Shown: positions 2,358-36,536 of the stretch, piece by piece
Layout: each line of letters begins with the position of its first letter
Position numbering within the stretch: the first letter of the stretch is position 1
Origin: Verrucomicrobiales bacterium
Lineage (GTDB): Bacteria; Verrucomicrobiota; Verrucomicrobiia; Verrucomicrobiales; Akkermansiaceae
Direction: 5' to 3'
DNA: 64,000 nucleotides
NCBI GenBank assembly: GCA_038204755.1
Contig: JBBRCO010000002.1
Location: 8,404 to 72,403 of the forward strand
The notes under the pieces: model-generated
The model's input: the letters and a program-made list of their open reading frames with translations, nothing else
Told to the model about the DNA's origin: nothing
Database searches by the model: none
Position numbers and translations under genes: made by a program

Positions 2358-5300
2358 GTGTCTATGGGGGGCGTGAAAGCAAATCTCCAACCCGCAATGG
2401 GCACGCTTGATGCCAACGAAGCGGTCGCCTCGGTGGCCTATCGTTTGAACGAATTTTTCGCGATCTATCCGATCACCCCGTCCTCTCCGATGGCTGAGTT
2501 CGCCGATGAATGGTCTGCGGGCGGTAAGAAGAACCTGTGGGGTGCGGTGCCGAGTGTGTTGGAGATGCAATCCGAAGGCGGTGCTGCGGGTGCGCTTCAC
2601 GGAGCTCTGTTAGCGGGTTCGCTCAGTGCGTCTTTCACTTGTTCTCAGGGTCTCTTGTTAATGATCCCGAACATGTATAAAATCGCGGGTGAGTTGATCC
2701 CATTCTGTCTTCACGTCACCGCCCGCGCCCTTGCGACGCATGCGCTGAGCATTTTCGGTGACCACTCGGATGTGATGGCTTGTCGCCAAACCGGATTCGC
2801 GATGCTCTGCGGCGGCTCCGTCCAGGAAGCACAGGACACGGCGGTGATCTCACAAATGGTCACGTTGCGTTCGCGAATTCCATTCCTTCATTTTTTCGAC
2901 GGCTTCCGCACTTCGCACGAAGTTTCGAAAATCGCCCTGCTGAGCGACGATGATCTCCGCGCCCTGATGGATAACGAGTGCATCAGCGCAAACCGCGATC
3001 GCGCCCTCACTCCGGACAAGCCAGCCATCCGTGGCACCGCGCAAAACCCCGATGCATTTTTCCAAGCCCGCGAGGCCGGGAATACCTACTACGACCGACT
3101 TCCAGGCATGGTGAAAGAAGCGATGGACGCATTCGCCACGCAAACCGGACGTGCCTACAAGCCATTCGATTATGAAGGCGATCTCGAAGCCGATCGTGTG
3201 ATTGTGATCATGGGTTCCGGCGGAGAAGCGGTCGCGGAAACGGTCGCTTGGATGAATGAGAACGGCCACAAAACCGGTGTGGTCAAGGTGCGTCTCTATC
3301 GCCCGTTCTCCGTTGCGGACTTTGCTGCCACCCTGCCAAAAACCGTGAAATCCATCGCCGTGCTGGACCGCTCGAAAGAGCCAGGCGCTCTGGGCGATCC
3401 ACTTTTTGTCGATGTTTCCGCTGCTCTCCGCCAGGCGGAGGTCGCTGGCTTGATGAAGGATACGCAGGCGATCCGCTTGATCGGTGGGCGCTATGGACTC
3501 GGCTCCAAGGAATTCACGCCCGCCATGGTCAAGGCGGTGTTTGATGAACTCGCGAAACCACAGGCAAAGCAGGTTTTCACCGTCGGCATCAACGACGATG
3601 TCACCGGCCTGTCTCTCGACTATGATCCTGAATTCGAAGTCGTCCCGGCCGGTGTGAAGCAAGCGGTCTTCTTCGGACTGGGCTCGGACGGCACCGTCGG
3701 CGCTAACAAAAACAGCATCAAGATCATCGGTGAAGGCACGGATAACTACGCGCAAGGCTACTTCGTCTATGACTCGAAAAAGTCGGGAGCGATGACCGTT
3801 TCCCACCTCCGTTTCGGCCCCGCGCCGATTCGCTCGACCTATCTGATCCGCAGCGCGGAGTTTGTGGCCTGCCATCGTTTCGACCTTCTCCACCAGGTGA
3901 ACGTGCTCGATTACGCGAAACCCGGCGGCATTCTGCTCCTCAACTCACCGGGCGACCCGCATGAAGCATGGGGCCGTCTGCCGCGTGAAATCCAAGAGCA
4001 GATCATCCTGAAAAACCTTTCGTTCTACGCGATCGATGCCAGCACCGTGGCCCGCGATTGTGGCATGGCCGGACGCATCAACACGATCATGCAGACGTGT
4101 TATTTCGCGATCTCCGGCGTTCTTGAAAAGGAGGAGGCCATCGCCGCGATCAAGTATGCGATTAAAAAAACCTATGGCAAACGCGGCGACGCCGTGGTCC
4201 AGCGCAACTACGAAGCCGTGGACCGCACCTTGGAAAATCTGGTGAAAATCGAATACCCGGATGCGCCTAACTCAACGATCCGCCTCAATCCGCTGGTCCC
4301 CGAAAACGCCCCGGATTTCGTGCAACGCGTCACAGCGATGATGTTAGGCGGCAAGGGCGATTTGCTTCCTGTGAGCGCGTTCCCGGTCGATGGCACCTGG
4401 CCAACCGGCACCACCCAATGGGAGAAACGCAACATCGCCGAGGAAATCCCGGTTTGGGAAACCGACATTTGTATCCAGTGTAACAAGTGCGCGATTGTTT
4501 GTCCGCACGCCGCGATCCGTCCGAAGATATTCACCCCGGATCACCTCGCGAACGCACCGGCCACCTTCAAGTCCACCGGGTTCAAGGCCCGCGAATATCC
4601 TAACATGCTCTATTCCCTGCAGGTCGCTGCCGAAGATTGCACCGGATGCCAACTCTGCGTGCAGGTCTGCCCCGCCAAGGACAAGAGTAACCCGAGCCGC
4701 AAGGCACTCAACATGGTGCCGCAAATCCCGCTGCGCGATGCCGAGCGCGAGAACTTCGCGTTTTTCCTCGATCTACCCGATCCGGACCGTGCGATGCTGC
4801 GCGATGACGTGAAGACCACCCAGTTCATGCGTCCGCTGTTTGAGTTCTCCGGTGCCTGTTCCGGTTGCGGTGAAACTCCCTATCTGAAACTTCTAACCCA
4901 GCTCTACGGTGACCGTTTGCTCATGGCAAACGCCACCGGATGCTCGTCGATCTATGGCGGTAACCTGCCAACCACTCCATACACCACCGATGCATGCGGA
5001 CGCGGCCCTGCATGGGCGAACTCGCTCTTCGAAGACAACGCGGAATTCGGTCTTGGCATGCGAGCCAGCCTCGACCAATCGCGCGCTTTCGCCAGCGTCC
5101 TGCTCAGTGGTCAGGCTGGTGTGTTAGGAGATGATCTCGTCACCTCCATCCTCGAAGCCGATCAAACGACCGAAGCCGGTATCAATGCCCAACGTGAACG
5201 GGTGATCGCCCTGCGCAGTGCCCTGAAAGGTGTTTCCACCAGCGATGCCCGCACCCTCGATCAAATCGCGGACTACCTTGTGGATAAGAGCGTGTGGATC

Positions 5301-5969
5301 ATCGGTGGCGACGGATGGGCCTACGATATCGGATTCGGTGGACTCGACCATGTGATCGCCTCTGGCAGAAACGTGAACATCCTGGTGCTCGATACAGAGG
5401 TTTACTCTAACACCGGAGGTCAACAATCGAAGTCCACACCGCTCGGCGCGGTCGCGAAGTTCAGTATGGCGGGAAAGGCCCTGCCGAAAAAAGACCTCGC
5501 CCTGATCGCCACCACCTACGGTTCGGTTTACGTCGCCCGTGTCGCGATGGGAGCGAAGGACGGGCACACCGTCTCGGTCCTGCGCGAAGCGGAGAGCTAT
5601 CCCGGGCCATCGCTGATCATCGCCTACAGCCACTGTGTCGCCCACGGGTATAGCTTGTCGCAAGGGCTCGAACAACAAAAGCGCGCCGTCGCTTGCGGTT
5701 ACTGGCCGCTGTTCCGCTTCGATCCGCGCCGCGCTGACAAGGGGGAAAACCCGATGAAGCTCGATTCCAGTGCGCCTAAAGGTTCGCTGAAAGACTTCAC
5801 CAGCAACGAGACCCGATTCCAGATGTTGGAACGCATCAACCCGGAACGTTCTGCGATGCTCCAGCAGATGGCAGCGGATTCCGTGAAGGAACGCTTCGCT
5901 CTCTATCAAAAAATGGCTGCCGTCACGGAGACCGCCGCGCCATCCGAAACCACCGCTCCTAACGCCTGA
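2358..5969 (+). CDS. nifJ: Pyruvate:ferredoxin (flavodoxin) oxidoreductase, single-chain type
   Basis: YPITPS, EMQSEGGAAG, two 4Fe-4S motifs (CIQCNKCAIVCP, CTGCQLCVQVCP), ACSGCGETPY, TPP motif GGDGWAYDIG; 1203 aa. Confidence 0.97.
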   Translation: MSMGGVKANLQPAMGTLDANEAVASVAYRLNEFFAIYPITPSSPMAEFADEWSAGGKKNLWGAVPSVLEMQSEGGAAGALHGALLAGSLSASFTCSQGLLLMIPNMYKIAGELIPFCLHVTARALATHALSIFGDHSDVMACRQTGFAMLCGGSVQEAQDTAVISQMVTLRSRIPFLHFFDGFRTSHEVSKIALLSDDDLRALMDNECISANRDRALTPDKPAIRGTAQNPDAFFQAREAGNTYYDRLPGMVKEAMDAFATQTGRAYKPFDYEGDLEADRVIVIMGSGGEAVAETVAWMNENGHKTGVVKVRLYRPFSVADFAATLPKTVKSIAVLDRSKEPGALGDPLFVDVSAALRQAEVAGLMKDTQAIRLIGGRYGLGSKEFTPAMVKAVFDELAKPQAKQVFTVGINDDVTGLSLDYDPEFEVVPAGVKQAVFFGLGSDGTVGANKNSIKIIGEGTDNYAQGYFVYDSKKSGAMTVSHLRFGPAPIRSTYLIRSAEFVACHRFDLLHQVNVLDYAKPGGILLLNSPGDPHEAWGRLPREIQEQIILKNLSFYAIDASTVARDCGMAGRINTIMQTCYFAISGVLEKEEAIAAIKYAIKKTYGKRGDAVVQRNYEAVDRTLENLVKIEYPDAPNSTIRLNPLVPENAPDFVQRVTAMMLGGKGDLLPVSAFPVDGTWPTGTTQWEKRNIAEEIPVWETDICIQCNKCAIVCPHAAIRPKIFTPDHLANAPATFKSTGFKAREYPNMLYSLQVAAEDCTGCQLCVQVCPAKDKSNPSRKALNMVPQIPLRDAERENFAFFLDLPDPDRAMLRDDVKTTQFMRPLFEFSGACSGCGETPYLKLLTQLYGDRLLMANATGCSSIYGGNLPTTPYTTDACGRGPAWANSLFEDNAEFGLGMRASLDQSRAFASVLLSGQAGVLGDDLVTSILEADQTTEAGINAQRERVIALRSALKGVSTSDARTLDQIADYLVDKSVWIIGGDGWAYDIGFGGLDHVIASGRNVNILVLDTEVYSNTGGQQSKSTPLGAVAKFSMAGKALPKKDLALIATTYGSVYVARVAMGAKDGHTVSVLREAESYPGPSLIIAYSHCVAHGYSLSQGLEQQKRAVACGYWPLFRFDPRRADKGENPMKLDSSAPKGSLKDFTSNETRFQMLERINPERSAMLQQMAADSVKERFALYQKMAAVTETAAPSETTAPNA

Positions 5970-5974
5970 TCACC

Positions 5975-6967
5975 ATGGAACTTGCCACTACCTATCTAGG
6001 TCTGCCTCTGAAAAATCCGGTGATGCCCGGTGCCTCACCCTTGGTCAATCAGCTCGACAACGTGCGGCGTTTGGAAGACGCCGGTGCTGCTGCCGTCGTG
6101 ATGCATTCGCTCTTTGAAGAGCAGATCACCAACGATCAGATTGCGGAGTTCGCCCATACGGAAAACCCTGCGGAGTCCTTCTCCGAAGCGGTTTCCTATT
6201 TCCCTCACATGGAGGATTATGCGTTCGGGCCGGACTGCTATCTCGACCAGATTTCCCGCATCAAGGAATCGGTTGAAATCCCGGTCATTGGTTCGCTCAA
6301 TGGCGTGAGTCAGGGTGGTTGGATCGACTACGCCCGCCTCATTCAACAGGCCGGTGCCGATGCGCTCGAACTCAACGTCTATTACATCGCCACCGCTCCG
6401 GACGAACCGGGAGTCGCCGTGGAGAATCGCACGCTTGAGATTTTTCAAGCGGTGAAGGAAGCCGTGACCATTCCCGTGGCGGTGAAACTTTCCCCTTTCT
6501 TCTCATCACCCGGTCATTTCGCCAAACAGCTGGACGGGATGGGGGCAGCCGGCGTGGTTCTTTTTAATCGCTTCTATCAACCTGATATCAATATCGAGGA
6601 ACTCGAAGCGACACACCGTCTCGATCTTTCGAACTCCACCGAGCTGCGTTTGCGTCTGCGCTGGGCGGCGATTCTCCACGGCCACCTCAAGGCGGACATC
6701 GCGGTCAGCGGTGGCGTGCACACCGTAGAGGACATCATCAAGGCGATCATGAGCGGAGCAAGTGTCGTGCAGGTGGTCTCCTGTTTGTTGAAATACGGAC
6801 CTACCCACATCGGCAGTCTGATCAACGGTCTGCGCCATTGGCTCGAGGATCACGAGTATGATTCCGTCGGGCAAATGCGCGGCAGCATGAGTCTGCAACA
6901 TTGCCCGGATCCAAGCGTCTTCGAACGCGCGAACTATCTTCGTGTCCTGCAACTCTGGAAAGTCTGA
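5975..6967 (+). CDS. Dihydroorotate dehydrogenase-like FMN TIM-barrel protein
   Basis: LGLPLKNPV, ADALELN, PVAVKLSP, SGGVH motifs; lacks the catalytic SCPN loop. Confidence 0.85.
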   Translation: MELATTYLGLPLKNPVMPGASPLVNQLDNVRRLEDAGAAAVVMHSLFEEQITNDQIAEFAHTENPAESFSEAVSYFPHMEDYAFGPDCYLDQISRIKESVEIPVIGSLNGVSQGGWIDYARLIQQAGADALELNVYYIATAPDEPGVAVENRTLEIFQAVKEAVTIPVAVKLSPFFSSPGHFAKQLDGMGAAGVVLFNRFYQPDINIEELEATHRLDLSNSTELRLRLRWAAILHGHLKADIAVSGGVHTVEDIIKAIMSGASVVQVVSCLLKYGPTHIGSLINGLRHWLEDHEYDSVGQMRGSMSLQHCPDPSVFERANYLRVLQLWKV

Positions 6968-6974
6968 TGTAAGC

Positions 6975-7379
6975 ATGAACCATCCCTACCTTCCAATTCT
7001 GATATTCTTCGGAGTAGCCCTAGCGGTCCCTATCGGGTCGCTGGTGCTGGCTAGGGTATGGATGACGTTTTTCACGCCGATCAAACGCGGCAAGGATAAG
7101 AACGCCCTCTACGAATGTGGTGTGGATCCTCTGGCCGGGCGGCAGACGCGCTTCCACTCGCAATACTATTTGTTCGGGCTCTTGTTCCTGCTCTTCGATG
7201 TGGAAACCGTCTTTCTGCTGCCATTCGCGGTCGCTTTCCTGAAACTAACGGTCGGTTCGTTCCTGGTGGCCATGCTTTTCCTGCTGCTCTTGGCGGAAGG
7301 GCTGGTCTGGGCGTGGGGCAAGGGACTTCTCAACTGGCGCGTAAAATCCAAACCTGACCTGACCTATCATGGCGATTGA
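6975..7379 (+). CDS. nuoA: NADH-quinone oxidoreductase subunit A
   Basis: YECG loop, FLLFDVE, 3 TM helices. Confidence 0.93.
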
Positions 7380-7998
7380 TTCCAATCATGCTGAAGACCT
7401 GAAATCGCAGGGCGTGCATGTCACCTCCTTTGAGCAGTTGATCAACTGGGGCCGCTCCAGTTCGCTTTGGCCGCTCCAGTTCGGGCTCGCCTGTTGCGCG
7501 ATTGAAATGATCGCCGCCACCATGGCGAAATACGACATGGCCCGCTTCGGGGCCGAGGTCTTCCGCCCGTCGCCGCGCCAAGCGGATCTGATGATCGTCG
7601 CTGGCACGGTGACCAAGAAGATGGCCCCGCAGGTCGTGCGTCTCTACAATCAGATGGCCGAGCCGAAATATGTCATCGCCATGGGGGCGTGCGCGATTTC
7701 CGGTGGTCCTTTCAAGGATGGCTACAATGTGCTCAAGGGGATTGATCGTTTCATCCCTGTGGACGTCGTCATTCCCGGATGTCCGCCACGACCCGAGGCT
7801 TTGTTGGAAGGTTTGATGACCCTGCGTAACAAGATCGCGAAGGAGAAACTGATAGGAAAACATCGCGCCCGCCACGCGGATGCCAATGGCACTCCATCGT
7901 TTCCTGTGCCGGATTTCGGCCCGCACGATCTCGAGCCCACGGCAAACCGCGAAATCTGGAATCCGCCCACGGTGATCCGTGAAGGAGGTGTGAAATGA
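7369..7998 (+). CDS. nuoB: NADH-quinone oxidoreductase subunit B
   Basis: [31 protein letters not shown] (N2 cluster ligands). Confidence 0.96.
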
Positions 7999-8591
7999 TC
8001 GCGGAGACCGCAACAATTCTCAGTCGCTTGCGGGAGGTATTGCCAAACGCCGAGATTTCACTTTGTAAAAACCCGGGGCCTTCCGCGCAACATTCACTGC
8101 TCGTCAGTGGCGGCTGCCTGCTTGATGTCTGTCGTTTCCTTCATGATACACTCAAGTTCGATCTGCTTTCTAACGTGACCGGCGTCGATTGGCTGGATGC
8201 TGCCAAAGCCAATGCCGTGGCCGTTTTAGACGAGGAGGGGACTTCTGCCACCGAAGGATTTCTTGAAGTGATCTATCACCTCTATTCCACCTCGCTCCGG
8301 ATCGGGCCGCTGGTGCTGCGCGCCCGCACCGCGGATCGCGACAAACTGGTCCAGATTCCATCCGTCGTTTCCGTATATCGAAGTGCCGAGTTTCAGGAAC
8401 GGGAGATTTTCGACCTCTACGGCGTCGATTTTACAGGCCATCCCGACCTTCGCCGCATCCTGATGTGGGATGAGTTTATCGATCACCCGATGCGCAAGGA
8501 CTACGTCGCTCCGGACGATTACGAATACGAACCCACTCCACATGCAGCCGTGTTGGAGCACGCCAAAGCGCATTACCCGGCCGCGCCATGA
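7995..8591 (+). CDS. nuoC: NADH-quinone oxidoreductase subunit C
   Basis: [27 protein letters not shown]. Confidence 0.94.
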
Positions 8592-9745
8592 TTTCCGATC
8601 CATCCATGTTTCCATCATCGCCGGTTCTCGACCCTGCGTCGGACGACGACCAAATGTTGCGTGTTTCGTTAGGCCCGCAGCATCCGTCCACTCATGGGGT
8701 GTTCCGCATGAATGTGGTGCTCGATGGCGAAACCGTGGTGAGCCTCAAGCCTGTTTTTGGCTACCTCCACCGCAATCACGAGAAGATCGGTGAAAGTCTG
8801 AGCTATCTGGCATCGATGCCCTACACGGATCGCCTCGATTATATCTGCCCGCTTACAAACAACTGGGCCTACGCCCATGCGGTGGAAAAACTCGCCGGTA
8901 TCGAGGTGCCCGAACGCGCCGAATACATGCGCGTCATTCTGGGTGAACTCACGCGATTGATCAACCACACCGCGTTCGCCGGATTTATCCTCGGCGACAT
9001 GGGAGCATGGGGATCAGCGCTGATGTATGCCTTCCGGGAGCGGGAGAAAATCCTTGATCTGTTTGAAGAACTCACCGGTGCGAGGATGATGGGGAATTTC
9101 ATGCGTTTCGGCGGCTGCCGCAACGATCTGCCTGCGGGTTGGGCTGCGAAAGTCGGCAAACTCGTCGATGAATACGGACCCTTCCTTGATGAGATGGAGA
9201 AGTTCCTCGTCGGAAATGAAATTTTGTTAGCCCGCACGCAGGATATCGGCGCATTGCCGAAGGAGGTTCTGATCAACGGCGGCATCACCGGCCCGATGCT
9301 GCGCGCGGCGGGGGTGAACTACGACATCCGCAAAGTGGAGCCATACGGTATCTACGAGCGTTTTGATTTCCGAGTTCCGCTAGGCGAAAGAGGCGATTGC
9401 TACGACCGCATCATGATCCGTTTCCTTGAGATGCGAGAGTCGTTGAAAATACTGCGTCAAGCGATCAACCGGTTGCCGGAAGGTGCCTACATCCATCCGA
9501 AAGCCAAATTGCGCAACTTCAAGGCACCGGTCGGGGAAGCCTATGGCCGGATTGAAGGACCGAAAGGCGAACTCGGATTCCATCTGATCAGCGATGGCAC
9601 GACCAGTCCTTATCGTTACCGTGTCCGTCCACCGAGTTTCATCAATCTGACTCTGCTGGAAGACATGTGCCTCGGTCTGGACCTTGCGGATGTCGTCGTG
9701 ATCTTGGGCAGTGTGGACATCGTGTTAGGGGAGGTGGACCGGTGA
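8588..9745 (+). CDS. nuoD: NADH-quinone oxidoreductase subunit D
   Basis: [29 protein letters not shown]-terminal DIVLGEVDR; no NiFe CxxC motifs. Confidence 0.96.
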
Positions 9746-9747
9746 AA

Positions 9748-10323
9748 ATGATTCTACCAGGTCTCGGTTTGTTCCAAGGACTCGTGGTGTCCGGTCGCAA
9801 TATGATCGAGAGCTTCTACAAAAAGGAGCGCATGACCACGATCCAGTATCCTGAGGAGCGTGCGCCAATCAGCCCGAATTTCCGCAATTTCCCATTCCTC
9901 TGTTACGATGGCAACGACCCCGTTGCCGGGCTGCGCTGCACGGCTTGCTCGATCTGTGAAAACGAGTGTCCGCCGCAGTGCATCTACATCGTGCTCGACC
10001 GTGATGAGAACGGGAAGTCGCTCAAGCGCCCGAAGGTTTTTGATATCGATCTCTCCGTTTGCATGAACTGCGGCATCTGCTCCGAGGTTTGTCCGTTCGA
10101 TTCCATCTACATGGACGGCGAGTATGAAATGAGCACCGACGACCGATTCGGTGGATTGCTTTTCGGTCTCGACCGGCTTTCCAAGTCTGCGGACTACCAC
10201 ATGAAACTCCGACCCGAGCAGGCGTCTGAAGTCCTCGCAAAGCGTAAGGCGGACGAAGAGAAGAAAGCCGCGACCGCAGCCGCAAAACTGGCAAAAGCCA
10301 AAGAAAAGGAGGCATCCGAATGA
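9748..10323 (+). CDS. nuoI: NADH-quinone oxidoreductase subunit I (2x[4Fe-4S])
   Basis: TIQYPEE, CTACSICENECP, CMNCGICSEVCP; start at 9742 or 9748. Confidence 0.93.
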   Translation: MILPGLGLFQGLVVSGRNMIESFYKKERMTTIQYPEERAPISPNFRNFPFLCYDGNDPVAGLRCTACSICENECPPQCIYIVLDRDENGKSLKRPKVFDIDLSVCMNCGICSEVCPFDSIYMDGEYEMSTDDRFGGLLFGLDRLSKSADYHMKLRPEQASEVLAKRKADEEKKAATAAAKLAKAKEKEASE

Positions 10324-11546
10324 GCATGTTGGAAAGTCTATCAACCAATCCGCCACTCTGGTCTCCCGAGTTGCTGCCACGCCTGCCGCAGCGACTGGTG
10401 GAACAGTTGCTCATTTGGATCGGTGCGCCTGAATGGCTGGTATTGATCGCTGGATTTGTTGTCGCCGCCTCCACGGTGGTGGGGGTTTTCGCCGGTGGCT
10501 TTGCCTTGCTCTCCTTGATTGAGAGAAAAACGCTGGCACGTATCCAGAACCGCATCGGCCCGAACCGCGCGGGCTGGTTCGGCATCCTGCAACCGGTTGC
10601 GGACGGCATTAAGATGCTGACCAAGGAGGATATCGTGCCCACCAAAGCCGAGTGGCTGTTGCACTTGTCAGCTCCTGTCATGATCGTGTTGCCCGCGATT
10701 CTTGCTCTTGGCGTGCTGCCATACGGTCGCGAATGGACGCCGGTGCCGCTGGAACTCGGGCTGTTATTTTTCTTCTCGGTCGGCGCGATGACAGAGGTCT
10801 CGATATTCATGGCAGGCTGGGCGAGTGGATCGAAATTTCCCATGCTCGGCGCGATGCGGGCGATCTCACAGATGGTGAGCTACGAGCTGCCGCTGATCAT
10901 TTCGTCGCTCGGTGTGGTCATGGTGTCCGGTTCGCTCTCACTGCCGCAGTTGGTAGAGAAACAATCGGGCTTTCATCTCGGATTCATTCCGGCGTGGAAC
11001 ATTTTCACGCCGTGGGGATTGCTCGCTGGCATCGTTTTTTACATCGCCGCCCTGGCCGAGGCGAACCGCTGCCCGTTCGATCTGCCGGAAGGTGAGTCGG
11101 AAATCGTCGCCGGTCACATGACGGAATACTCGGGCTTCAAATATGCCCTCTTTTTCATGGGCGAATACCTCGGGCTTTTTGCGATCAGTGGCTTGGGGAT
11201 AACCTTGTTTCTCGGTGGCTGGCAGGCCCCGCTGCCGGGTCTTGATTTCGTGCCTTCCTGGATCTGGTTCTTCGCGAAACTCGCGGTGATCATCATGTCT
11301 TTCCTATGGATTCGCGGGACGTTTCCACGGGTGCGCATCGACCAACTCATGCGCTTTGCATGGCTCTGCTTGGTCCCGATGGCGCTCGTCACATTGCCTG
11401 CCGCCGCGATCTGGCATTTCACGGGCAGGGGAGCGGTGGCGTGGCTTGTCACCGGACCACTTCTGTTGATTCCCTGGGTCATTCTCACGGTTATCTTTAA
11501 TCGGCGTCTCGCTCCTGCAAACCGTCACTACCACTTCGCCGAATGA
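10320..11546 (+). CDS. nuoH: NADH-quinone oxidoreductase subunit H
   Basis: ERK..ARIQNRIGPN, QPVADGIKMLTKED, PFDLPEGESE. Confidence 0.96.
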   Translation: MSMLESLSTNPPLWSPELLPRLPQRLVEQLLIWIGAPEWLVLIAGFVVAASTVVGVFAGGFALLSLIERKTLARIQNRIGPNRAGWFGILQPVADGIKMLTKEDIVPTKAEWLLHLSAPVMIVLPAILALGVLPYGREWTPVPLELGLLFFFSVGAMTEVSIFMAGWASGSKFPMLGAMRAISQMVSYELPLIISSLGVVMVSGSLSLPQLVEKQSGFHLGFIPAWNIFTPWGLLAGIVFYIAALAEANRCPFDLPEGESEIVAGHMTEYSGFKYALFFMGEYLGLFAISGLGITLFLGGWQAPLPGLDFVPSWIWFFAKLAVIIMSFLWIRGTFPRVRIDQLMRFAWLCLVPMALVTLPAAAIWHFTGRGAVAWLVTGPLLLIPWVILTVIFNRRLAPANRHYHFAE

Positions 11547-12058
11547 TTCCGCTCCTTGTTCTAACGTCTGTAATCCTCATCGCTGCTCTCGGTGCGGTGT
11601 GGAAAGCCCGTCCTGTCCATGCGGCACTGCTTCTGGCGCTCATGCTCGCTTTGAATGCCGTGCTCTATCTGGTAGTCGGGGCGCATTTCATCGGCCTTGT
11701 CCAGTTCATGGTCTATGTCGGTGCGGTGGCTGTGCTGATTGTCTTCTCGCTGCTCATCACCCGCCCCGGGGACGAGGCGGAGGAGTTGATAAGGCGTCCG
11801 GAATCGCTGGCTATCGGTCTTGTCTGCACGCTGCCGGTTTTGATTGTGCTGGGCACTTCGGTTTCACGCATGCCCCTCACAGATTCCAATGTTACCGATG
11901 CTCCCGCACTTCCTGTCGAACGGTTAGGAGAAATTCTTTTCACCACGCATGCCCCTGCGGTGATCGCTATGGGTGTGCTGCTGACCTCCGTGATGATTGG
12001 TGCCGCGCTGCTCGCCCGCGAACCCGGTAAAAAACAGCTAACCCCTTCCGAAAAATGA
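11543..12058 (+). CDS. nuoJ: NADH-quinone oxidoreductase subunit J
   Basis: Q..VYVGAVAVL motif, 5 TM helices. Confidence 0.92.
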   Translation: MIPLLVLTSVILIAALGAVWKARPVHAALLLALMLALNAVLYLVVGAHFIGLVQFMVYVGAVAVLIVFSLLITRPGDEAEELIRRPESLAIGLVCTLPVLIVLGTSVSRMPLTDSNVTDAPALPVERLGEILFTTHAPAVIAMGVLLTSVMIGAALLAREPGKKQLTPSEK

Positions 12059-12366
12059 CGCCGCTCGCCCTGCTGCTCACGCTTTCCTCGGTCCTATTCA
12101 CGCTCGGTCTCTTCGCCGTGCTGACCCGCCGCAATGCGATCCTGATTCTCGTCGGCATCGAGCTGATGCTCAATGCGGCCAATATCAACTTCATCGCCTT
12201 CTGGCGTTATGGCCCGCCCGATCCAGAGCTCACCGGGCCGATGTTTGTGCTTTTCTCCATCGCCATTGCCGCCGCCGAAGCCGCCGTGGGTCTGGCCATC
12301 ATCCTGATGGTTTTCCGCCACACCCGTTCGACCGACCTCAACCGTCTTGATTCCCTCCATGGCTGA
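12055..12366 (+). CDS. nuoK: NADH-quinone oxidoreductase subunit K
   Basis: IELMLNAAN, AAAEAAVGLA. Confidence 0.95.
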   Translation: MTPLALLLTLSSVLFTLGLFAVLTRRNAILILVGIELMLNAANINFIAFWRYGPPDPELTGPMFVLFSIAIAAAEAAVGLAIILMVFRHTRSTDLNRLDSLHG

Positions 12367-14398
12367 AGCACTTAAACCTTATCTTCCCTGCCTGCTTTGG
12401 TGGGTGCCGCTGTTACCATTATTAGCGGGTGGCATCATCGCATTCCTGCCTAACGGACGTGGCCGCGCCGCTTCCAAGCTGGCGATCGGTGCTTTGTTCG
12501 TTTCTTGTTTGATCGCGCTTGGCGCGTTGGTGTGCGCGTTGGCTCCGTCCGAGGGGGAACCCCTGGTGGCGACTGTCCTTCCATGGTTCACTTTTGGCGA
12601 TGTGGCGATAAAGGTCGGCCTGCTGCTCGATCCGATGAGCGCGGCGATGGCGGCGATGGTGACATTCGTGGCGTTGTGGATTTTCATCTACAGCCTCGGA
12701 TACATGCATCATGAACCGCGTTTCGGCAGGTTCTTCGGATTCCTATCCCTGTTCTGCGGCGCGATGTTGATGGTGGTTCTCGCTAACAGCCTGCTGCTTC
12801 TTTTCATCGCGTGGGAACTTGTCGGTCTCGCCTCGTATCTGCTCATCGGTTTCTATTACGAAAAACCTTCCGCCGCCGCTGCCGCGCAGAAAGCATTCAT
12901 CACCACCCGTGTCGGTGATATGGCGTTTTTCCTTGGTTTGATCTGGCTCAACTGCCAATCCGGCACGCTGCTTTTTTATGACAACGGCCACGGTTTGCTG
13001 GAATCCGGCGCGCTCACCTCGTTGGCGGGCACCACGACGATCGGCGGGCTAACGGTTTCTGCGGCGGCTTCGCTGCTATTGTTGGTCGGTGCGATGGGGA
13101 AATCCGGGCAAGTACCGTTGCACACGTGGTTGCCCGATGCCATGGAAGGTCCGACTCCGGTGTCCGCGCTGATCCACGCTGCGACGATGGTAGCCGCTGG
13201 CGTGTTCATGGTGGCCCGCACCCATCCGATTTTCGCCAACGGCGGTGGGTTGACGGCTCCTCTAACAGCCTGCGCGTGGATCGGAGGAATCACTGCGCTT
13301 TACGCGGCGCTGGTCGCTCTGGCGCAAACCGACATCAAGCGCATCCTCGCCTACTCGACGGTTTCGCAACTTGGTTTCATGATGGTAGCCCTCGGCACCG
13401 GCGGTGTGGCGGCCGCGATGTTCCACTTGATCGCCCACGCGTTTTTCAAAGCACTGCTCTTCCTATCCGCTGGCTCGGTGATTCACGGATGCCACGAAGA
13501 ACAGGACATCCGCAAAATGGGCGGGCTGCGTGCGGCGATGCCGAAAACATTCATCGCGTATGCGGTAGGCATGATGGCGCTTTCGGGCTTCCCGTTTGTT
13601 TTCTCCGGATTCTGGAGCAAGGAGGCGATCCTTCACAGCGCCCAAGCCTGGCCGGGAGGTATGGGGCCGTTTCTGCTAGCTGCCACCGCCGCCCTGCTTA
13701 CCGCATTCTATATGACACGCCAGGCGCTGCTCGTATTCTTTGGCACACCGCGCAAACCCGGGATTTCTCATCCGCATGAGAGTGCGGCGATCATGCTGGT
13801 GCCGCTCTATGTGCTGGCTGCTGGAGCGGTGTTGCTCTCATTGGTCGGCACTCCGATCTGGCCTTGGTTTGAATCATGGATCGATGGCGAGCACGCCACC
13901 TTTGATGCCGGCGCTCTAGCCAAACACGGTTCACCGGCGCTCATCGCGCTTTCACTGACCATCGTCACGCTCGGTGTGGGCGTGGCCTGGCTGATCTATC
14001 GGAAACCATCGCAAGACAGCAGTGCATCTGACCCCGTGGAGCGCAGGATCGGCGGACTTTGGGAATTTCTCGCGTCCGGCATGGGCTTCGATGCGCTTTA
14101 CGAAAAGGCCATTATCGGGCCTCTGGCATTTCTAGCTGGTGGCGTGGATTCAGTGGAGCGGCAGTTCTTCGTGCCGCTGATGGGTGCTGCCGAAGGCCTT
14201 CTCAAAGGGTTGGGCCGTCTGACCGGAGCATCCGATGAAAAGGGCCTGAACGATGGTTTCAACGGTGTTTGTGCGGGGCTGATCAAACATGCCAGTTCCA
14301 CATCAAGATCCCAGTCCGGTCGTCCGCAGTCCTATCTCCGGGGCATCGGGCTCGCGATGTCTATTTTGTTAGTTGTCTATTTCTGGCTCAGCGCCTAG
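12359..14398 (+). CDS. nuoL: NADH-quinone oxidoreductase subunit L with extended amphipathic helix
   Basis: WELVGLASYLLIGF, GKSGQVPLHTWLPDAMEGPTPVSALIHAATMV, HAFFKALLF. Confidence 0.96.
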   Translation: MAEALKPYLPCLLWWVPLLPLLAGGIIAFLPNGRGRAASKLAIGALFVSCLIALGALVCALAPSEGEPLVATVLPWFTFGDVAIKVGLLLDPMSAAMAAMVTFVALWIFIYSLGYMHHEPRFGRFFGFLSLFCGAMLMVVLANSLLLLFIAWELVGLASYLLIGFYYEKPSAAAAAQKAFITTRVGDMAFFLGLIWLNCQSGTLLFYDNGHGLLESGALTSLAGTTTIGGLTVSAAASLLLLVGAMGKSGQVPLHTWLPDAMEGPTPVSALIHAATMVAAGVFMVARTHPIFANGGGLTAPLTACAWIGGITALYAALVALAQTDIKRILAYSTVSQLGFMMVALGTGGVAAAMFHLIAHAFFKALLFLSAGSVIHGCHEEQDIRKMGGLRAAMPKTFIAYAVGMMALSGFPFVFSGFWSKEAILHSAQAWPGGMGPFLLAATAALLTAFYMTRQALLVFFGTPRKPGISHPHESAAIMLVPLYVLAAGAVLLSLVGTPIWPWFESWIDGEHATFDAGALAKHGSPALIALSLTIVTLGVGVAWLIYRKPSQDSSASDPVERRIGGLWEFLASGMGFDALYEKAIIGPLAFLAGGVDSVERQFFVPLMGAAEGLLKGLGRLTGASDEKGLNDGFNGVCAGLIKHASSTSRSQSGRPQSYLRGIGLAMSILLVVYFWLSA

Positions 14399-14402
14399 TG
14401 TC

Positions 14403-15926
14403 ATGATTCTACTTTCGCTCATACTGCTACCACTTCTGGGTGCTTTCTGGCTCGCAGTCCGTCCCTGCATGGCGCGGGAATGCTCGGCGCGGCTTGCGCT
14501 GGCATGGTCGTTCCTGCCGCTGATTCTGGTCGTATGGTTAGGAATTTCGGATGGGGCGAAAGCCGAGTGGTCACTGACATGGCTGCCAGATGCGGCGATG
14601 AATCTCCGCTTCAGCGTCGATGGTATTTCCTGGCTGTTCCTGCTGCTCACCGCGCTGGTGACTTCGTTTGCGCTGGCGGCTTCACTGGGGAACGAGCGCA
14701 CCAGTCGTGGCTATTTCGCACTCATTCTTGTTTTGGAGTCCGCCCTGTTCGGAGTCTTTACGGCGCGGCATTTCATCCCGTGGTTCTTGTGTTGGGAAAT
14801 GACATTGATCCCGTCCTATCTGCTGATCCGGCTTTGGGGCGGCAGTGGAGCCCCGCGCGCGGCCTTGCGGTTTTTCATCATGACCTTGGGCGGCAGCGCA
14901 TTCATGTTGGTGGGATTCCTTGCCTTGCAGCTTGCCGTGGGGACGATGGATTTTGATGCACTGGGCCAGCTTGCTAGAAACAAGGAACTCGCCGCAGGTT
15001 TGGCAAAAACCTTCGCCGCGTCTGGTTTTAGCGGCCAGGGAATGCTGACGGGTGTTGCGCTAGCGGTTTTCCTCGGGCTTGCGGTGAAAGTGCCAATTGT
15101 GCCGTTTCACGCGTGGCTGCCCGCCGCCTATGCCGAAGCACCGACTCCGGTGACGATGCTTCTAACCGGACTGCTTTCGAAAATGGGTGTATATGGTTTG
15201 CTCAGGATCTTCCTGCCGGTATTTCCCGAGGTGTTGCCCGCGATCGCACCTTTGCTGACCTGGTTGGCGGTGCTGACAGTTTTGTTGGGCGCGTTCGCAG
15301 CGCTCGCGCAAACGGACCTGAAGCGCATGCTCGCCTATTCTTCCGTCAACCACCTCGGCTACTGCGCCCTGGCAATCGCCGCTGCTGCTGCCGCGCACAC
15401 CGACCGAGCGGCCCTTTCGTCGGCCTTGTCCGGCACCGTGCTTCAAGCGATCAATCACGGCATCATCGCCTCCAGTTTGTTCTTCGGCATCAGCATTCTG
15501 GAAAGCCGCAGTGGGGGATTACGCGGGCTGAATGACTTCGGTGGTCTGCGCGCACGCACTCCCGTGTTCTGCGGCATGTTCGGGTTAGCCGTATTCGCAT
15601 CGCTCGGGCTTCCGGGCTTGAGCGGCTTCATCGGGGAGTTCCTGATCTTCAATGGTGTCTTTGCGCTGGCTCCGTGGGCGGCGGCGGTTTCGGTGCTGGG
15701 TCTGTTACTGACCGCCGTGTTTCTGCTGCGCCTGATCCGCAAGGTTTTCAACGGCCCGCTCAATCCGGCACTCTCGAAACGGGCTGATCTGACAACCGGC
15801 GAGAGGATGATTTTCGGTTTGGCCGTCGCTCTGATCGTCATTCCCGGAGTGTGGCCACAGGTGCTGCTGCGTTTTGCCAATCCCGGCATACTTCAACTTC
15901 TTGACCTTCTTCGTCCGACCCCATGA
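14403..15926 (+). CDS. nuoM: NADH-quinone oxidoreductase subunit M (copy 1)
   Basis: WE..LIP, VKVPIVPFHAWLP, SKMGVYG, AYSSVNH, SLGLPGLSGFIGE. Confidence 0.93.
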   Translation: MILLSLILLPLLGAFWLAVRPCMARECSARLALAWSFLPLILVVWLGISDGAKAEWSLTWLPDAAMNLRFSVDGISWLFLLLTALVTSFALAASLGNERTSRGYFALILVLESALFGVFTARHFIPWFLCWEMTLIPSYLLIRLWGGSGAPRAALRFFIMTLGGSAFMLVGFLALQLAVGTMDFDALGQLARNKELAAGLAKTFAASGFSGQGMLTGVALAVFLGLAVKVPIVPFHAWLPAAYAEAPTPVTMLLTGLLSKMGVYGLLRIFLPVFPEVLPAIAPLLTWLAVLTVLLGAFAALAQTDLKRMLAYSSVNHLGYCALAIAAAAAAHTDRAALSSALSGTVLQAINHGIIASSLFFGISILESRSGGLRGLNDFGGLRARTPVFCGMFGLAVFASLGLPGLSGFIGEFLIFNGVFALAPWAAAVSVLGLLLTAVFLLRLIRKVFNGPLNPALSKRADLTTGERMIFGLAVALIVIPGVWPQVLLRFANPGILQLLDLLRPTP

Positions 15927-17395
15927 CACCTGCCTGGACAATTCTATCATCTTTTGCCGGGGTGCTGTTGGTGCTCCTGCTGCCCGCCCGCACGTCGCGT
16001 TACCTTGCATTGGCGGCCGCGCTTGCCGGAGCTGTGGCAGCAGGAGCAGCTTGCCTCGCCCGTCTGGCTCAGCCTGCCAGCCCGGTCTGGGAATACGACC
16101 ATACATGGATTCCCGAGCTCGGCATCCGCTTTCACCTCGCAGCCGACGGGCTTTCTCTAACGATGTTGCTGCTTACCGGCATTGTGTCAGTGGCAGGTGT
16201 GTTGTTCTCATGGAATGTGACGCTTCGGCCGCGGGCGTTCTTCGCGTTTTTCCTGACGATCATCGGTGGTGTGTATGGCGTTTTCCTCAGCCGTGATGCT
16301 TTCCTGCTGTTTGTCTGTTATGAAATCGTGATCCTGCCGAAATACATGCTCATCGCCATCTGGGGATCGACCAACCGCGAATACGGCGCGATGAAGCTAA
16401 CGATGTATTCCATCGGTGCCAGTGCTCTGATCTTGGTTGGACTGGTGGTGGCATACGCCGCAGCGGGTGCGACCAGCTTTGATCTGATACACCTTGCTCA
16501 CACAAACTATCCGGTGGCGTTGCAAGCGTGGGCGTTTCCGATTCTTTTCCTCGGTTTTGCGATCCTCGCGGGCATGTGGCCGTTCCATACCTGGGCGCCC
16601 ACCGGTCACGTGGCGGCTCCGACCGCCGCATCCATGTTGCTCGCCGGGGTGGTGATGAAACTCGGTGCGTATGGTGCGCTGTGCGTCGCGATGCCTTTGT
16701 TCCCTCAAGGTTTTGAGTTGTGGAAACCTGTGATTGCCGTGCTGGCGGTGGTCGGGATTGTTTACGGGGCGCTCACCGCGCTTTCGCAAAAGGATCTGAA
16801 ATTCGTGATCGGCTATTCCAGCGTGAGTCACATGGGATTCATTCTGCTAGGGCTTGCCACCGCGAACCACTGGGGTCTGCGGGGGGCGGTATTGCAAATG
16901 ATTTCACACGGCATCATCGCGGGATTGCTCTTCGGCATTGCCGGCAGGGTTGTCTATGAACGCACGCATACCCGCGATCTCGCAGCACTCCGGGAGTTTG
17001 ATTTATGGAAAACTCTTCCGGGTGCGGCGCTTGCATTCACCTTGGCCACCGCCGCATCGATGGGGTTGCCGGGTTTCAGCGGATTCGTGGCTGAAATTTC
17101 CGTGGTGATCGGGCTTTGGCAGACCTATCCGTGGCTGACCGCTGCGGTGGCGGTGGGAATCATTATCACGGGCGCGTTCTCACTGCGTGCTTTGCAGAAG
17201 GCGTTTTTCCCGACGCGGAATGAAGGCGATGCGGCGGCACCGCTCCTGCCGCCGCTCACCTGGCCTGAGATCGCTGCCATCACGCTGCTGATCGCTGTTT
17301 CCCTATCCATCGGTCTCTATCCGAAACCTTGGGTAGTGCTGATCGACGATGGTCTTCGTTCTCCCTTGTTCAAATCGATCGTTACCCTACCGTGA
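15923..17395 (+). CDS. nuoM: NADH-quinone oxidoreductase subunit M (copy 2, divergent)
   Basis: PFHTWAP, MKLGAYG, GYSSVSHMG, SMGLPGFSGFVAE. Confidence 0.92.
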   Translation: MTPAWTILSSFAGVLLVLLLPARTSRYLALAAALAGAVAAGAACLARLAQPASPVWEYDHTWIPELGIRFHLAADGLSLTMLLLTGIVSVAGVLFSWNVTLRPRAFFAFFLTIIGGVYGVFLSRDAFLLFVCYEIVILPKYMLIAIWGSTNREYGAMKLTMYSIGASALILVGLVVAYAAAGATSFDLIHLAHTNYPVALQAWAFPILFLGFAILAGMWPFHTWAPTGHVAAPTAASMLLAGVVMKLGAYGALCVAMPLFPQGFELWKPVIAVLAVVGIVYGALTALSQKDLKFVIGYSSVSHMGFILLGLATANHWGLRGAVLQMISHGIIAGLLFGIAGRVVYERTHTRDLAALREFDLWKTLPGAALAFTLATAASMGLPGFSGFVAEISVVIGLWQTYPWLTAAVAVGIIITGAFSLRALQKAFFPTRNEGDAAAPLLPPLTWPEIAAITLLIAVSLSIGLYPKPWVVLIDDGLRSPLFKSIVTLP

Positions 17396-18888
17396 ACCAT
17401 TCCACGCTAATCATCCAACTTTTACCGGAGGCCGCGTTGGTGATCACCGCGCTGCTGCTTCTTGGTGTGGCCGTGGGCTACGAGTCGAAAAAGCAAACGA
17501 CCTTCCCCGTTGCGGCGGCGATTGTGCTCACTTCGCTGGGCATTTTGGTGGCCTTGACGACTTTGTTCGTCGTTCCTCAGGCAGCCGGTGACGGTTCACC
17601 GCTGGTCGCGATGGATCCACTGGCGCGGCTCTTTAAAGCGGTGGTGCTGGGCCTGGGCTTGTTAGCAGTTTGGCTGCCGCCCGCACGGCGTGAAATCCAG
17701 CAGGTCGGGGAGTTCTACGCGCTGATCCTTTTTGCCCTCACCGGCCTATCCCTTACGGTCGGAACGAACCATCTGCTCTTCCTGTTTGTCGCACTGGAGC
17801 TGGCAAGTCTCTCGCTCTATCTGCTTGCGGGTTTTTCGCGCACGCCGCGTGCAGCGGAAGCATCGCTTAAATACTTCCTGTTCGGCGGGGTTTCCGCGGC
17901 GTTCATGCTTTTCGGCCTTAGCTTCCTCTATGGTGTCTCTCACACCGCCACACTCAGCGGCTTGGCGACTGCGCTCGGGTCTGGTCCGCCATCCGTTCTG
18001 GCGATCACCGGGCTGGTGATGGTGTTGGTAGGGCTGGCTTTCAAAATGGCCGCCGCGCCATTCCATTACTGGGCACCGGATGTCTATCAGGGAGCTCCGG
18101 CGACGAGCGTGGCGGTGATATCCGCCGCCTCGAAGGCCGTGGGTCTGGTGGTGTTGGTTCGCCTGTTACTGATCGGATTCCACGCCGCAGCAGGTTCGGC
18201 GGGGTGGGGGAATATGATGCCGGGCTGGTCGATGTGGCTGGCGGTGCTTGCGGCGGTGTCGATCATTTTTGGAAACCTGCTGGCACTGGCCCAGACCAGC
18301 GTGCGACGTTTGTTGGCCTACTCCGCTGTCGCGAATACCGGCTACATGTTGGTGGCTCTCGCGGCCAACGGATCGGCGGCTGCTGGAAGCGCGTTGTTTT
18401 ACGTAGTGGTCTATGGTTTGGCGACTCTCGGTGCTTTGGCTGTGACCGCTGCCGTCGAGCGTGATCGCGGAAATGACAGCCTATCCGCGTTCGGAGGGCT
18501 TGTTCACCGCTCGCCATTTCAGGCAATCGCCCTGTTCATTTGCCTAACATCTCTAGCCGGTATTCCACCCTTGGCGGGATTTTTTGGAAAGTTCGCTCTT
18601 TTCAGCACGGCGCTGGCAGCGACTGCGGATGGCGTCAAACCCGGTCTTGTTTGGTTGGTCGGGCTGGCCGCCATCATGAGTGCGATCTCGCTTTACTACT
18701 ATCTATCTATTTTGAAGCAGGCGTTTGTGAAGGATGCTGGTGACGGGAAAACCAACACCCGCTTGAGCTGGTCTCACGCGCTGGCGGTGGGTGTCCCGGC
18801 ATTGCTGCTCATCGTGCTTGGCTTGTTTCCCTCGCTGTTGCTCAGCCCGATCACACGCGCCGTTGTTGAAACTCTCGGCCGGCGCTGA
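17392..18888 (+). CDS. nuoN: NADH-quinone oxidoreductase subunit N
   Basis: EASLKYF, FKMAAAPFHYWAPDVYQGAP, RRLLAYS, SLAGIPPLAGFFGK; GTG start overlaps the nuoM2 stop. Confidence 0.95.
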   Translation: MNHSTLIIQLLPEAALVITALLLLGVAVGYESKKQTTFPVAAAIVLTSLGILVALTTLFVVPQAAGDGSPLVAMDPLARLFKAVVLGLGLLAVWLPPARREIQQVGEFYALILFALTGLSLTVGTNHLLFLFVALELASLSLYLLAGFSRTPRAAEASLKYFLFGGVSAAFMLFGLSFLYGVSHTATLSGLATALGSGPPSVLAITGLVMVLVGLAFKMAAAPFHYWAPDVYQGAPATSVAVISAASKAVGLVVLVRLLLIGFHAAAGSAGWGNMMPGWSMWLAVLAAVSIIFGNLLALAQTSVRRLLAYSAVANTGYMLVALAANGSAAAGSALFYVVVYGLATLGALAVTAAVERDRGNDSLSAFGGLVHRSPFQAIALFICLTSLAGIPPLAGFFGKFALFSTALAATADGVKPGLVWLVGLAAIMSAISLYYYLSILKQAFVKDAGDGKTNTRLSWSHALAVGVPALLLIVLGLFPSLLLSPITRAVVETLGRR

Positions 18889-36528: not shown

Positions 36529-36536
36529 TCCCGGCC

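What the first reader, a model, noticed from the sequence alone, without database searches (positions are those of the whole stretch)
2358..18888. PFOR + flavoprotein + NuoEFG-less 2M complex I in one operon: candidate pyruvate/ferredoxin-driven proton-pumping module
Seen: 14 co-oriented genes with overlaps or gaps under 10 nt (nifJ, DHOD-like, nuoA B C D I H J K L M M N), no nuoE/F/G and two nuoM. Known: complex I homologues with a duplicated nuoM ('2M') were described by Chadwick et al. 2018 (ISME J) and proposed to pump an extra proton. Inference: reduced ferredoxin from PFOR, or the PFOR clusters directly, feeds NuoI with quinone as acceptor, or the complex runs in reverse to drive pyruvate synthesis. 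To my knowledge this electron input has not been shown biochemically.
Basis: partly seen in the sequence, partly recalled or inferred. Interest (0 to 1): 0.85.

Follow-up and report, generated by a model that had tools for sequence, protein, structure and literature searches.

The report
Four-pump complex I behind pyruvate oxidoreductase
A gene cluster places a pyruvate-oxidising, ferredoxin-reducing enzyme directly in front of a known four-pump form of respiratory complex I that lacks its NADH-binding head, so the pump is likely fed by ferredoxin rather than NADH, an electron source so far only proposed for this enzyme type.

Summary
In detail: 14 tightly packed, co-oriented genes (PFOR, DHOD-like, nuoABCDIHJKLMMN) with no nuoEFG. 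The nuo part is a 2M complex I: two divergent NuoM, a NuoL lateral helix about 25 residues longer, and pump and quinone-site residues conserved. That enzyme type is known.

The PFOR link is real but not obligatory. It is confined to one Akkermansiaceae clade. There it is intact in 11 relatives and broken right after nuoA in 23, and the break is not a single event. Either module also occurs without the other.

The DHOD-like protein lacks the catalytic cysteine and travels with PFOR, not with complex I, so a dedicated flavoprotein input head is unsupported.

Ferredoxin input is still well supported indirectly. 8 of 21 more distant 2M genomes have PFOR/DHOD-like, another 2-oxoacid oxidoreductase or a ferredoxin gene flanking the operon. 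Some NuoI carry a fused extra Fe-S domain. NADH to menaquinone is too weak to move five protons.

Best reading: PFOR to soluble ferredoxin to 2M complex to menaquinone, probably at low oxygen. No expression, binding or biochemical data were obtained. The original 2M paper was not readable.

The parts
2298..2345 (+). Conserved upstream block, putative promoter; TGnTATAAT at 2308-2316
   Evidence: Conserved across 9 aligned PFOR upstream regions and seen in the sequence. The sigma-70 scan did not list it. Function inferred.
2358..5969 (+). Single-chain pyruvate:ferredoxin/flavodoxin oxidoreductase (nifJ type); start probably 2373 or 2397
   Evidence: TIGR02176 1728 bits; two CxxCxxCxxxCP motifs
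5975..6967 (+). PRK07565 DHOD-like TIM-barrel protein, predicted FMN-binding, without the DHOD catalytic Cys (Tyr136)
6975..7379 (+). nuoA
   Evidence: PF00507; D75 and E77 invariant in 47 of 47
7369..7998 (+). nuoB (N2 cluster ligands)
   Evidence: four Cys invariant in 88 of 88
7995..8591 (+). nuoC
   Evidence: PF00329
8588..9745 (+). nuoD with quinone-site His32, His36, Tyr85
   Evidence: residues in 90 of 92, the other two gapped
9748..10323 (+). nuoI, two [4Fe-4S] motifs plus an Ala/Lys-rich C-terminal tail
10320..11546 (+). nuoH
   Evidence: PF00146
11543..12058 (+). nuoJ
   Evidence: PF00499
12055..12366 (+). nuoK
   Evidence: PF00420; E36 and E75 invariant in 70 of 70
12359..14398 (+). 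nuoL with lengthened lateral helix (about +25 residues)
   Evidence: predicted continuous helix at residues 574-651
14403..15926 (+). nuoM1, with TM5 Glu, TM7 Lys, TM8 Lys and TM12 Glu
   Evidence: TIGR01972 398 bits; residues in 55 of 55
15923..17395 (+). nuoM2: Leu at the TM7 Lys position, invariant Lys six residues after the TM5 Glu
   Evidence: TIGR01972 423 bits; 56 of 56
17392..18888 (+). nuoN
   Evidence: TIGR01770 356 bits; charged residues in 30 of 30

Best explanation
The cluster encodes PFOR, its usual DHOD-like companion and a headless four-antiporter (2M) complex I, likely transcribed together, and the complex likely works as a ferredoxin:menaquinone oxidoreductase that takes electrons from PFOR through a soluble ferredoxin rather than by direct contact. 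Inferred steps: PFOR oxidises pyruvate to acetyl-CoA and CO2 and reduces the small acidic ferredoxin encoded elsewhere (G000:C26). Ferredoxin hands electrons to the NuoI clusters, then to N2 in NuoB, then to menaquinone at NuoD/NuoH. The larger potential drop would pay for up to five protons per two electrons, and menaquinol would be reoxidised by cytochrome bd or a heme-copper oxidase, probably at low oxygen. The ordinary NuoEFG-type complex I handles NADH. The operon is a lineage-specific regulatory fusion (ancestrally PFOR, DHOD-like, Rrf2 regulator, nuoA-N), not an obligate physical module. Shown: gene content, order, residues, distribution. Inferred: co-transcription, donor, acceptor, direction, stoichiometry, oxygen control.
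For: (1) 2M anatomy is intact. (2) PFOR/DHOD-like stands before nuoA in 34 related genomes plus the window, and the linked DHOD-like copies form one clade. (3) In other families, PFOR and/or DHOD-like sit tail-to-tail with nuoN in 3 of 21 sampled 2M genomes; 0.04 expected by chance if independent. One has ferredoxin plus a 2-oxoacid:acceptor oxidoreductase directly after nuoN. Five have a divergent ferredoxin gene at nuoA. That is 8 of 21 genomes in all, one counted in two classes. (4) 4 of 86 NuoI carry a fused extra Fe-S domain. (5) The ferredoxin is present in 25 of 25 genomes tested; the window's copy has net charge -13. (6) menD in 12 of 12 relatives. With recalled midpoint potentials, NADH to MK supports about 3 H+ and ferredoxin to MK about 4-5.7. 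(7) The genome has a bd oxidase, two heme-copper oxidase subunits I and three E1-type dehydrogenases. In Synechocystis the nifJ operon with sll0744 is induced under microoxia (PMC11368403).
Against: No expression, binding or activity data. The ferredoxin is probably near-universal in the family, so its presence is weak evidence. 13 of 21 sampled 2M genomes show no such neighbour in the stretch fetched, and 6 of 21 have no nifJ-type PFOR over cut-off. Kin are not independent: three of the five ferredoxin cases are one genus, and the tail-to-tail cases may share an origin. The NuoI tail is near neutral (median net +1) and its inter-cluster loop is no more basic than in canonical NuoI, so I found no sequence sign of a ferredoxin dock. 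menD was not found in the window's own 82%-complete genome. NuoM2 lacks the TM7 Lys, so a fifth proton is unproven; the canonical NuoM of the same family also lacks it.
Confidence: 0.6

Rival explanations
1. The 2M complex borrows NuoEFG from the canonical complex I, or has another donor, and the PFOR pair merely landed in front of it once in a genome that shuffles genes freely.
For: NuoG was found in 5 of 5 and 18 of 20 2M genomes. NuoE and NuoF lie on other contigs of this genome. The link has one origin and is often broken or lost. G139, G062 and G131 lack nifJ-type PFOR and DHOD-like.
Against: nuoG sits with the canonical nuoHIJKL genes in the three regions inspected. Ferredoxin-related neighbours recur in different arrangements. 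NADH to MK cannot drive five protons (recalled potentials).
Confidence: 0.15
2. The complex runs mainly in reverse, using proton-motive force to reduce ferredoxin from menaquinol so that PFOR makes pyruvate or other low-potential reactions are supplied.
For: Proposed for Nitrospira 2M complexes (PMC6606698; PMC9040806). At five H+ the Fd/MK couple is close to equilibrium at 150-180 mV. A divergent carboxylase/decarboxylase gene (PF00682 + PF02436) precedes PFOR in 3 loci.
Against: The genome looks heterotrophic: a fucose permease lies nearby, terminal oxidases are present and no RuBisCO motif was found. The ATP-citrate-lyase search was uninformative because no control rang. The genome is 82% complete.
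Confidence: 0.13
3. The DHOD-like flavoprotein, alone or bound to PFOR, docks on NuoI/NuoD as a dedicated input head replacing NuoEFG, giving a pyruvate:quinone proton-pumping supercomplex.
For: It lies directly before nuoA, 7 nt apart here. It has lost the DHOD catalytic Cys but keeps likely FMN-pocket residues. A true pyrD exists elsewhere in the genome. NuoI has a long tail that other members use as a tether.
Against: DHOD-like occurs in 105 of 400 phylum genomes and the 2M-type NuoD in 21 of 400. It follows PFOR in 11 of the 15 sampled 2M genomes that have nifJ-type PFOR. 6 of 21 2M genomes lack it, and G022 keeps it without the 2M NuoD. It has no conserved Cys for Fe-S wiring. nuoI is separated from it in 23 of 34 linked relatives.
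Confidence: 0.12

Closest known systems
2M complex I (Chadwick, Hemp, Fischer, Orphan 2018, ISME J 12:2668; paper not held, known here from passages of PMC9040806, PMC6606698, PMC7117926, PMC11636273)
   Same: Second NuoM; NuoL lateral-helix insertion of similar size (26 aa is cited for a related complex in PMC9040806); no NuoE/F in the cluster; co-exists with a canonical complex I; ferredoxin proposed as partner.
   Different: The Nitrospira form lacks nuoH (present here); the Chloroflexi form has fused nuoCD and a separated nuoBCDI. Here the order is ABCDIHJKLMMN, directly behind PFOR and DHOD-like, in a likely heterotroph. I could not check which of Chadwick's clades this is or whether that paper already notes the PFOR neighbour.
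11-subunit (headless) complex I: cyanobacterial NDH-1 with ferredoxin, archaeal Fpo, Campylobacter flavodoxin-using complex I (PMC3144371, PMC4453560 passages; PMC7021789 abstract start only)
   Same: No N-module in the cluster; Q- and P-modules conserved; low-potential carrier as likely donor. PMC3144371 proposes the Q-module as a docking platform without a designated partner, which fits the variable neighbours seen here.
   Different: Four antiporter-like subunits instead of three; no homologues of the cyanobacterial accessory subunits were sought; donor not shown.
nifJ (PFOR) + DHOD-like gene pair, e.g. Synechocystis sll0741/sll0744 (PMC11368403)
   Same: Same two genes in one unit; microoxic induction in Synechocystis.
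   Different: Here fused transcriptionally (inferred) to a complex I operon, ancestrally with an Rrf2 gene between. The biochemical role of the DHOD-like protein was not found in my searches.
Class 1 dihydroorotate dehydrogenase / dihydropyrimidine dehydrogenase FMN domain (PDB 1DOR, 1H7W)
   Same: TIM-barrel fold (TM 0.64-0.70); Asn134, Lys171, Asn198 and Gly247 retained.
   Different: Tyr at the catalytic Cys column in 104 of 124 family members; about 20% identity; below all true-DHOD cut-offs.

Membership tests
2M complex I | Two nuoM genes between nuoL and nuoN | tested here: met
   Both over the TIGR01972 cut-off, 34% identical; two M in 55 of 55 related loci showing both L and N, three of them duplicates
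2M complex I | Lengthened NuoL lateral helix | tested here: met
   76-78 residues between anchors in 63 of 63 versus 52-53 in 5 canonical NuoL of the same family; 26-column gap block; predicted helix 574-651. Earlier AI notes say this insertion also occurs with a single nuoM, so it is not diagnostic alone.
2M complex I | Proton-channel charged residues in all four antiporter subunits | tested here: inconclusive
   Complete in L, M1 and N; M2 has Leu at the TM7 Lys position and an invariant Lys in TM5, 56 of 56. E. coli numbering is recalled.
2M complex I | Both NuoM assembled in one complex; five H+ per turnover | not testable with these tools
   Needs structure and pumping assay; described as a hypothesis in the citing papers
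Headless (11-subunit type) complex I | No nuoEFG in the cluster | tested here: met
Headless (11-subunit type) complex I | Works without NuoEFG from elsewhere | not testable with these tools
   NuoE and NuoF are in this genome, NuoG in relatives
Complex I rather than [NiFe]-hydrogenase | Quinone-site His/His/Tyr in NuoD, no Ni-binding CxxC pairs | tested here: met
   translation ends in GEVDR without CxxC
nifJ-type PFOR | Single chain over the TIGR02176 cut-off with two ferredoxin motifs | tested here: met
Dihydroorotate dehydrogenase (class 1) | Catalytic Cys after the ELN motif | tested here: not met
   ELNVYY versus ELNLSCP; Tyr in 104 of 124
   Intact in 11, split in 23; upstream link in 0 of 21 and 0 of 27 distant loci; modules occur singly

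The most novel reading that the evidence does not exclude
Verrucomicrobial 2M complex I is a five-proton ferredoxin:menaquinone pump with a plug-in electron input: PFOR with its non-catalytic DHOD-like FMN protein in this clade, a ferredoxin or 2-oxoacid oxidoreductase in others, and a NuoI-tethered Fe-S domain in a third group. In this clade the DHOD-like protein would be the relay that docks PFOR onto the complex, and placing nuoA alone under the PFOR promoter would be enough to switch assembly on.
Probability: 0.15. Interest if true: 0.85.

Novelty: new variant of a known kind. Interest (0 to 1): 0.5.

Why it matters
The donor for headless and 2M complex I enzymes outside cyanobacteria and methanogens is largely unproven, and the five-proton stoichiometry is a hypothesis. 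This locus, with the independent ferredoxin-related neighbourhoods in other Verrucomicrobiota, names a concrete donor chain (PFOR and a specific small ferredoxin) and an acceptor (menaquinone) that can be tested. If right, common heterotrophic verrucomicrobia conserve extra energy from pyruvate oxidation at low oxygen. It also flags the very widespread PRK07565 protein as a mis-annotated PFOR companion worth assaying.

Tried and rejected
Chadwick 2018 could not be read by PMC id or DOI.

Paper searches for a PFOR-linked 2M cluster listed no paper describing it. The library lacks most subscription papers, so this is not proof of novelty.

No RNA holder was listed, so no reads were laid. Complex prediction of PFOR domains III-V + NuoI + DHOD-like was not available, so there is no verdict on binding.

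The promoter scan found 8 sites against 6.4 expected and 31 terminator-like hits against 19.5, mostly within membrane-protein genes, with none on + after nuoN; uninformative. Rfam had no match in 1-22000.

The idea that the Lys-rich NuoI tail is a basic ferredoxin dock was not supported: median net charge +1, and 19 of 86 reach +3 or more; the inter-cluster loop is neutral as in canonical NuoI. The idea that the genome lacks ferredoxin, making the DHOD-like protein the necessary carrier, was rejected. A recent nuoM duplication or misassembly was rejected (34% identity, conserved in relatives). A single origin of the nuoA/nuoB split was rejected (p-AU 2e-53).

The ATP-citrate-lyase search was void. 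Futalosine-pathway genes were found in 0 of 1 and 0 of 12 genomes. The careful NuoD tree did not finish; one search is the quick tree.
Full report
OBSERVATION. The ORF list shows 14 consecutive + strand genes from 2358 to 18888. NCBIfam and Pfam name them nifJ-type PFOR, PRK07565 DHOD-like, NuoA, B, C, D, I, H, J, K, L, M, M, N. With the nearest in-frame start codons the junctions run from -11 to +7 nt, most of them 4-nt overlaps. GC content is like the rest of the window. The neighbours on both sides are on the - strand. A block about 50 nt long upstream of PFOR is conserved in 9 aligned regions and holds TGnTATAAT at 2308-2316. One transcript is therefore likely, but no RNA run was listed. 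The closest relatives are labelled Akkermansiaceae/Luteolibacter, with NuoD 76-93% identical. The genome is 82% complete.

THE NUO PART IS A 2M COMPLEX I. The two NuoM are 34% identical. All 55 related loci that show both nuoL and nuoN have two nuoM; three of the 55 are duplicates. One sampled genome (G433) ends its cluster after the first nuoM, and I did not look for the rest. Between two anchors in the NuoL lateral helix, 63 of 63 sequences have 76-78 residues, against 52-53 in five canonical NuoL from the same family. AlphaFold2 models residues 574-651 as one helix, with pLDDT 60-84 along it. N2 cysteines, quinone-site His/His/Tyr, NuoA, NuoK, NuoL, NuoM1 and NuoN charged residues are invariant where aligned (E. 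coli and T. thermophilus numbering recalled). NuoM2 has Leu at the TM7 lysine and an invariant Lys six residues after the TM5 Glu (56 of 56). The two canonical NuoM examined also lack the TM7 Lys but have Thr at the TM5 site. Whether M2 pumps is therefore open. Yu et al. (PMC9040806, passages) and Mundinger et al. (PMC6606698, passages) describe the 2M type by a second NuoM and a lengthened NuoL, and cite reverse electron flow to ferredoxin as a hypothesis. Chadwick 2018 itself was not held.

A SECOND COMPLEX I EXISTS. The genome has scattered canonical nuoA (C11), nuoBC (C5), nuoDE (C79), nuoF (C51) and nuoMN (C133). Its nuoG and nuoH-K were not found, which fits incompleteness. NuoG was found in 5 of 5 and 18 of 20 related 2M genomes, next to canonical nuoHI(J)KL in the three regions fetched.

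HOW CONSERVED IS THE PFOR LINK. Of 73 GTDB loci, 10 show PFOR and/or DHOD-like directly before nuoA-nuoB, and an eleventh (L013) does so in its genome. Many other loci begin at nuoB. I searched 29 genomes in which nuoA was not seen directly before nuoB in the locus (four at contig edges or with an insertion). nuoA was found in 28. In 22 of them, plus G142, it still follows DHOD-like but is not followed by nuoB. One was intact (L013), one has only a PFOR fragment (L021), one only Rrf2 at a contig edge (L008), one is at a contig edge, and two are unlinked. So 34 relatives are linked: 11 intact and 23 split. An Rrf2 gene lies between DHOD-like and nuoA in 23 of the 34 and is missing in the window. 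All linked rows fall in one 54-row NuoD clade (SH-aLRT 97, quick tree). The 35 linked DHOD-like copies form one clade with G022 (support 100). The split state is not one clade (p-AU 2e-53; 50 rows, L033 and L007 dropped), and several nuoB upstream regions look like decayed nuoA ends (by eye). Reading: one ancestral fusion, then repeated breaks and losses.

THE MODULES ARE SEPARABLE. In 150 family genomes DHOD-like was found in 9 and the 2M-type NuoD in 5, both in 2. G139, G062 and G131 (95-98% complete) have the intact 2M operon without DHOD-like or an over-cut-off nifJ. G022 (98%) has PFOR and DHOD-like without the 2M NuoD. In 400 phylum genomes DHOD-like occurs in 105 and 2M-type NuoD in 21. 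Of those 21, 15 have nifJ-type PFOR, 15 have DHOD-like, 11 have the two adjacent (coordinates), and none shows them upstream of nuoA in the stretch fetched, which was short or absent for three. Among the best 80 of 583 metagenome loci, 30 show nuoB with at least 1.5 kb upstream. The two linked ones are close relatives, and 0 of 27 distant ones are linked.

YET FERREDOXIN-RELATED NEIGHBOURS RECUR. In the same 21 genomes, PFOR and DHOD-like lie tail-to-tail with nuoN in G195 (about 70 bp between hit ends) and in G256 (with a GltD-like gene between), and a DHOD-like copy does so in G454. About 0.04 such cases are expected by chance among the 15 genomes, if independent. G524 has a ferredoxin and a 2-oxoacid:acceptor oxidoreductase right after nuoN. 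Five genomes, G454 among them and three from one genus, have a single-cluster ferredoxin gene divergent from nuoA. That makes 8 of 21. Four of 86 NuoI, and three metagenome NuoI, extend the Ala/Lys tail into a PF04060 Fe-S domain. These cases are partly kin, so the count is suggestive and not a test. The ferredoxin homologue is in 25 of 25 genomes searched; the window's genome has it on C26, 78 residues, net charge -13.

THE FLAVOPROTEIN. The model (pLDDT 90.8) matches the FMN barrel of dihydropyrimidine and class 1A dihydroorotate dehydrogenases at about 20% identity. The catalytic Cys column is Tyr in 104 of 124 family members, no Cys column reaches 30%, and Asn134, Lys171, Asn198 and Gly247 are kept (their FMN role is recalled from DHOD). 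A true pyrD lies on C41. It is a very large family (1054 clusters at E<=1e-30). In Synechocystis sll0744 shares the nifJ transcription unit and is induced under microoxia (PMC11368403, passages). It belongs with PFOR; FMN binding and function are inferred. Binding could not be modelled.

MECHANISM. menD is in 12 of 12 relatives but was not found in this incomplete genome, so menaquinone is the likely acceptor. With recalled potentials, NADH to MK yields 47 kJ and supports 2.7-3.3 H+ at 150-180 mV. Ferredoxin at -0.45 to -0.50 V yields 73-82 kJ and supports 4.2-5.7 H+. A fourth antiporter makes energetic sense only with a low-potential donor, and the reaction would sit near equilibrium, so reversal is possible. 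The genome has cytochrome bd, two heme-copper oxidase subunits I and three E1-type dehydrogenases, a second PFOR without DHOD-like, a fucose permease beside the cluster and no RuBisCO motif. I commit to forward flow from pyruvate through ferredoxin to menaquinone (0.6). Rivals: borrowed head or incidental (0.15), reverse (0.13), direct flavoprotein head (0.12). Against my reading: no basic docking patch was seen on NuoI, and 13 of 21 genomes show no relevant neighbour.

LITERATURE SEEN. Passages by term search: PMC7117926, PMC9040806, PMC11636273 (Acidobacterium 2M nuoABC up at low O2), PMC6606698, PMC13768988 (PFOR review, no mention of nuo or dihydroorotate), PMC11368403, PMC12361115, PMC7419157, PMC10540074, PMC8129789, PMC3144371 (no designated partner found for 11-subunit complex I), PMC4453560 (flavodoxin and ferredoxin donors known). 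PMC7021789: listing only. No supplements were read. Searches listed no description of this cluster; Chadwick 2018 and its supplements may contain one.

VERDICT. Real, well conserved within one clade, and a new arrangement of known parts. It strengthens a standing hypothesis (ferredoxin as donor of 2M complex I) and makes it testable, but it does not show a new input module. Interest 0.5.

Noticed in passing
L040:11169-12191, L041, L042, L047; metagenome L200, L208, L224: 2M-type NuoI fused through its Ala/Lys tail to a short helix like the N-terminus of CysJ-type diflavin reductases and to a PF04060 Fe-S domain: a possible tethered input.
   Followed up: partly
window 15923-17395 (NuoM2 residues 134-215): TM7 lysine replaced by Leu, with an invariant Lys six residues after the TM5 Glu in 56 of 56; may be a relocated ion-pair partner.
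   Followed up: partly
L133-L158, L075 versus L002-L059: The operon breaks repeatedly at the nuoA/nuoB junction, leaving only nuoA with PFOR and DHOD-like; decayed nuoA-like ends precede nuoB in several loci. In about ten loci of one subclade (e.g. L051-L059) it also ends after nuoI.
   Followed up: partly
L029, L031, L066, L067, L175: nuoA is moved to the end of the operon, after nuoN.
   Followed up: no
G000:C11:29326-31862 (L160); window 48792-50561: The canonical nuoA is followed by a CysJ-like flavodoxin/FAD/NAD gene; a second CysJ-like gene in the window precedes a sulfite-reductase-like gene.
   Followed up: no
L252 (G524:C177): 2M operon followed by ferredoxin, a 2-oxoacid:acceptor oxidoreductase and a second, different headless nuo-like cluster; DHOD-like lies about 2 kb beyond it.
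   Followed up: partly
L014, L018, L025: A carboxylase/decarboxylase subunit gene (PF00682 + PF02436) is divergent from PFOR.
   Followed up: no
G000:C59:5870-13040, C33:11868-16553, C48:3-3812: The genome also holds a hydrogenase-4-like cluster, an Mrp-like antiporter and a lone NuoL-like gene beside a large ORF; named from tblastn hits and translations only.
   Followed up: no
window 36256-41141: A 90-aa protein, a 174-aa protein and a 1295-aa ORF; the first resembles a WXG100-like protein by recall, not tested.
   Followed up: no
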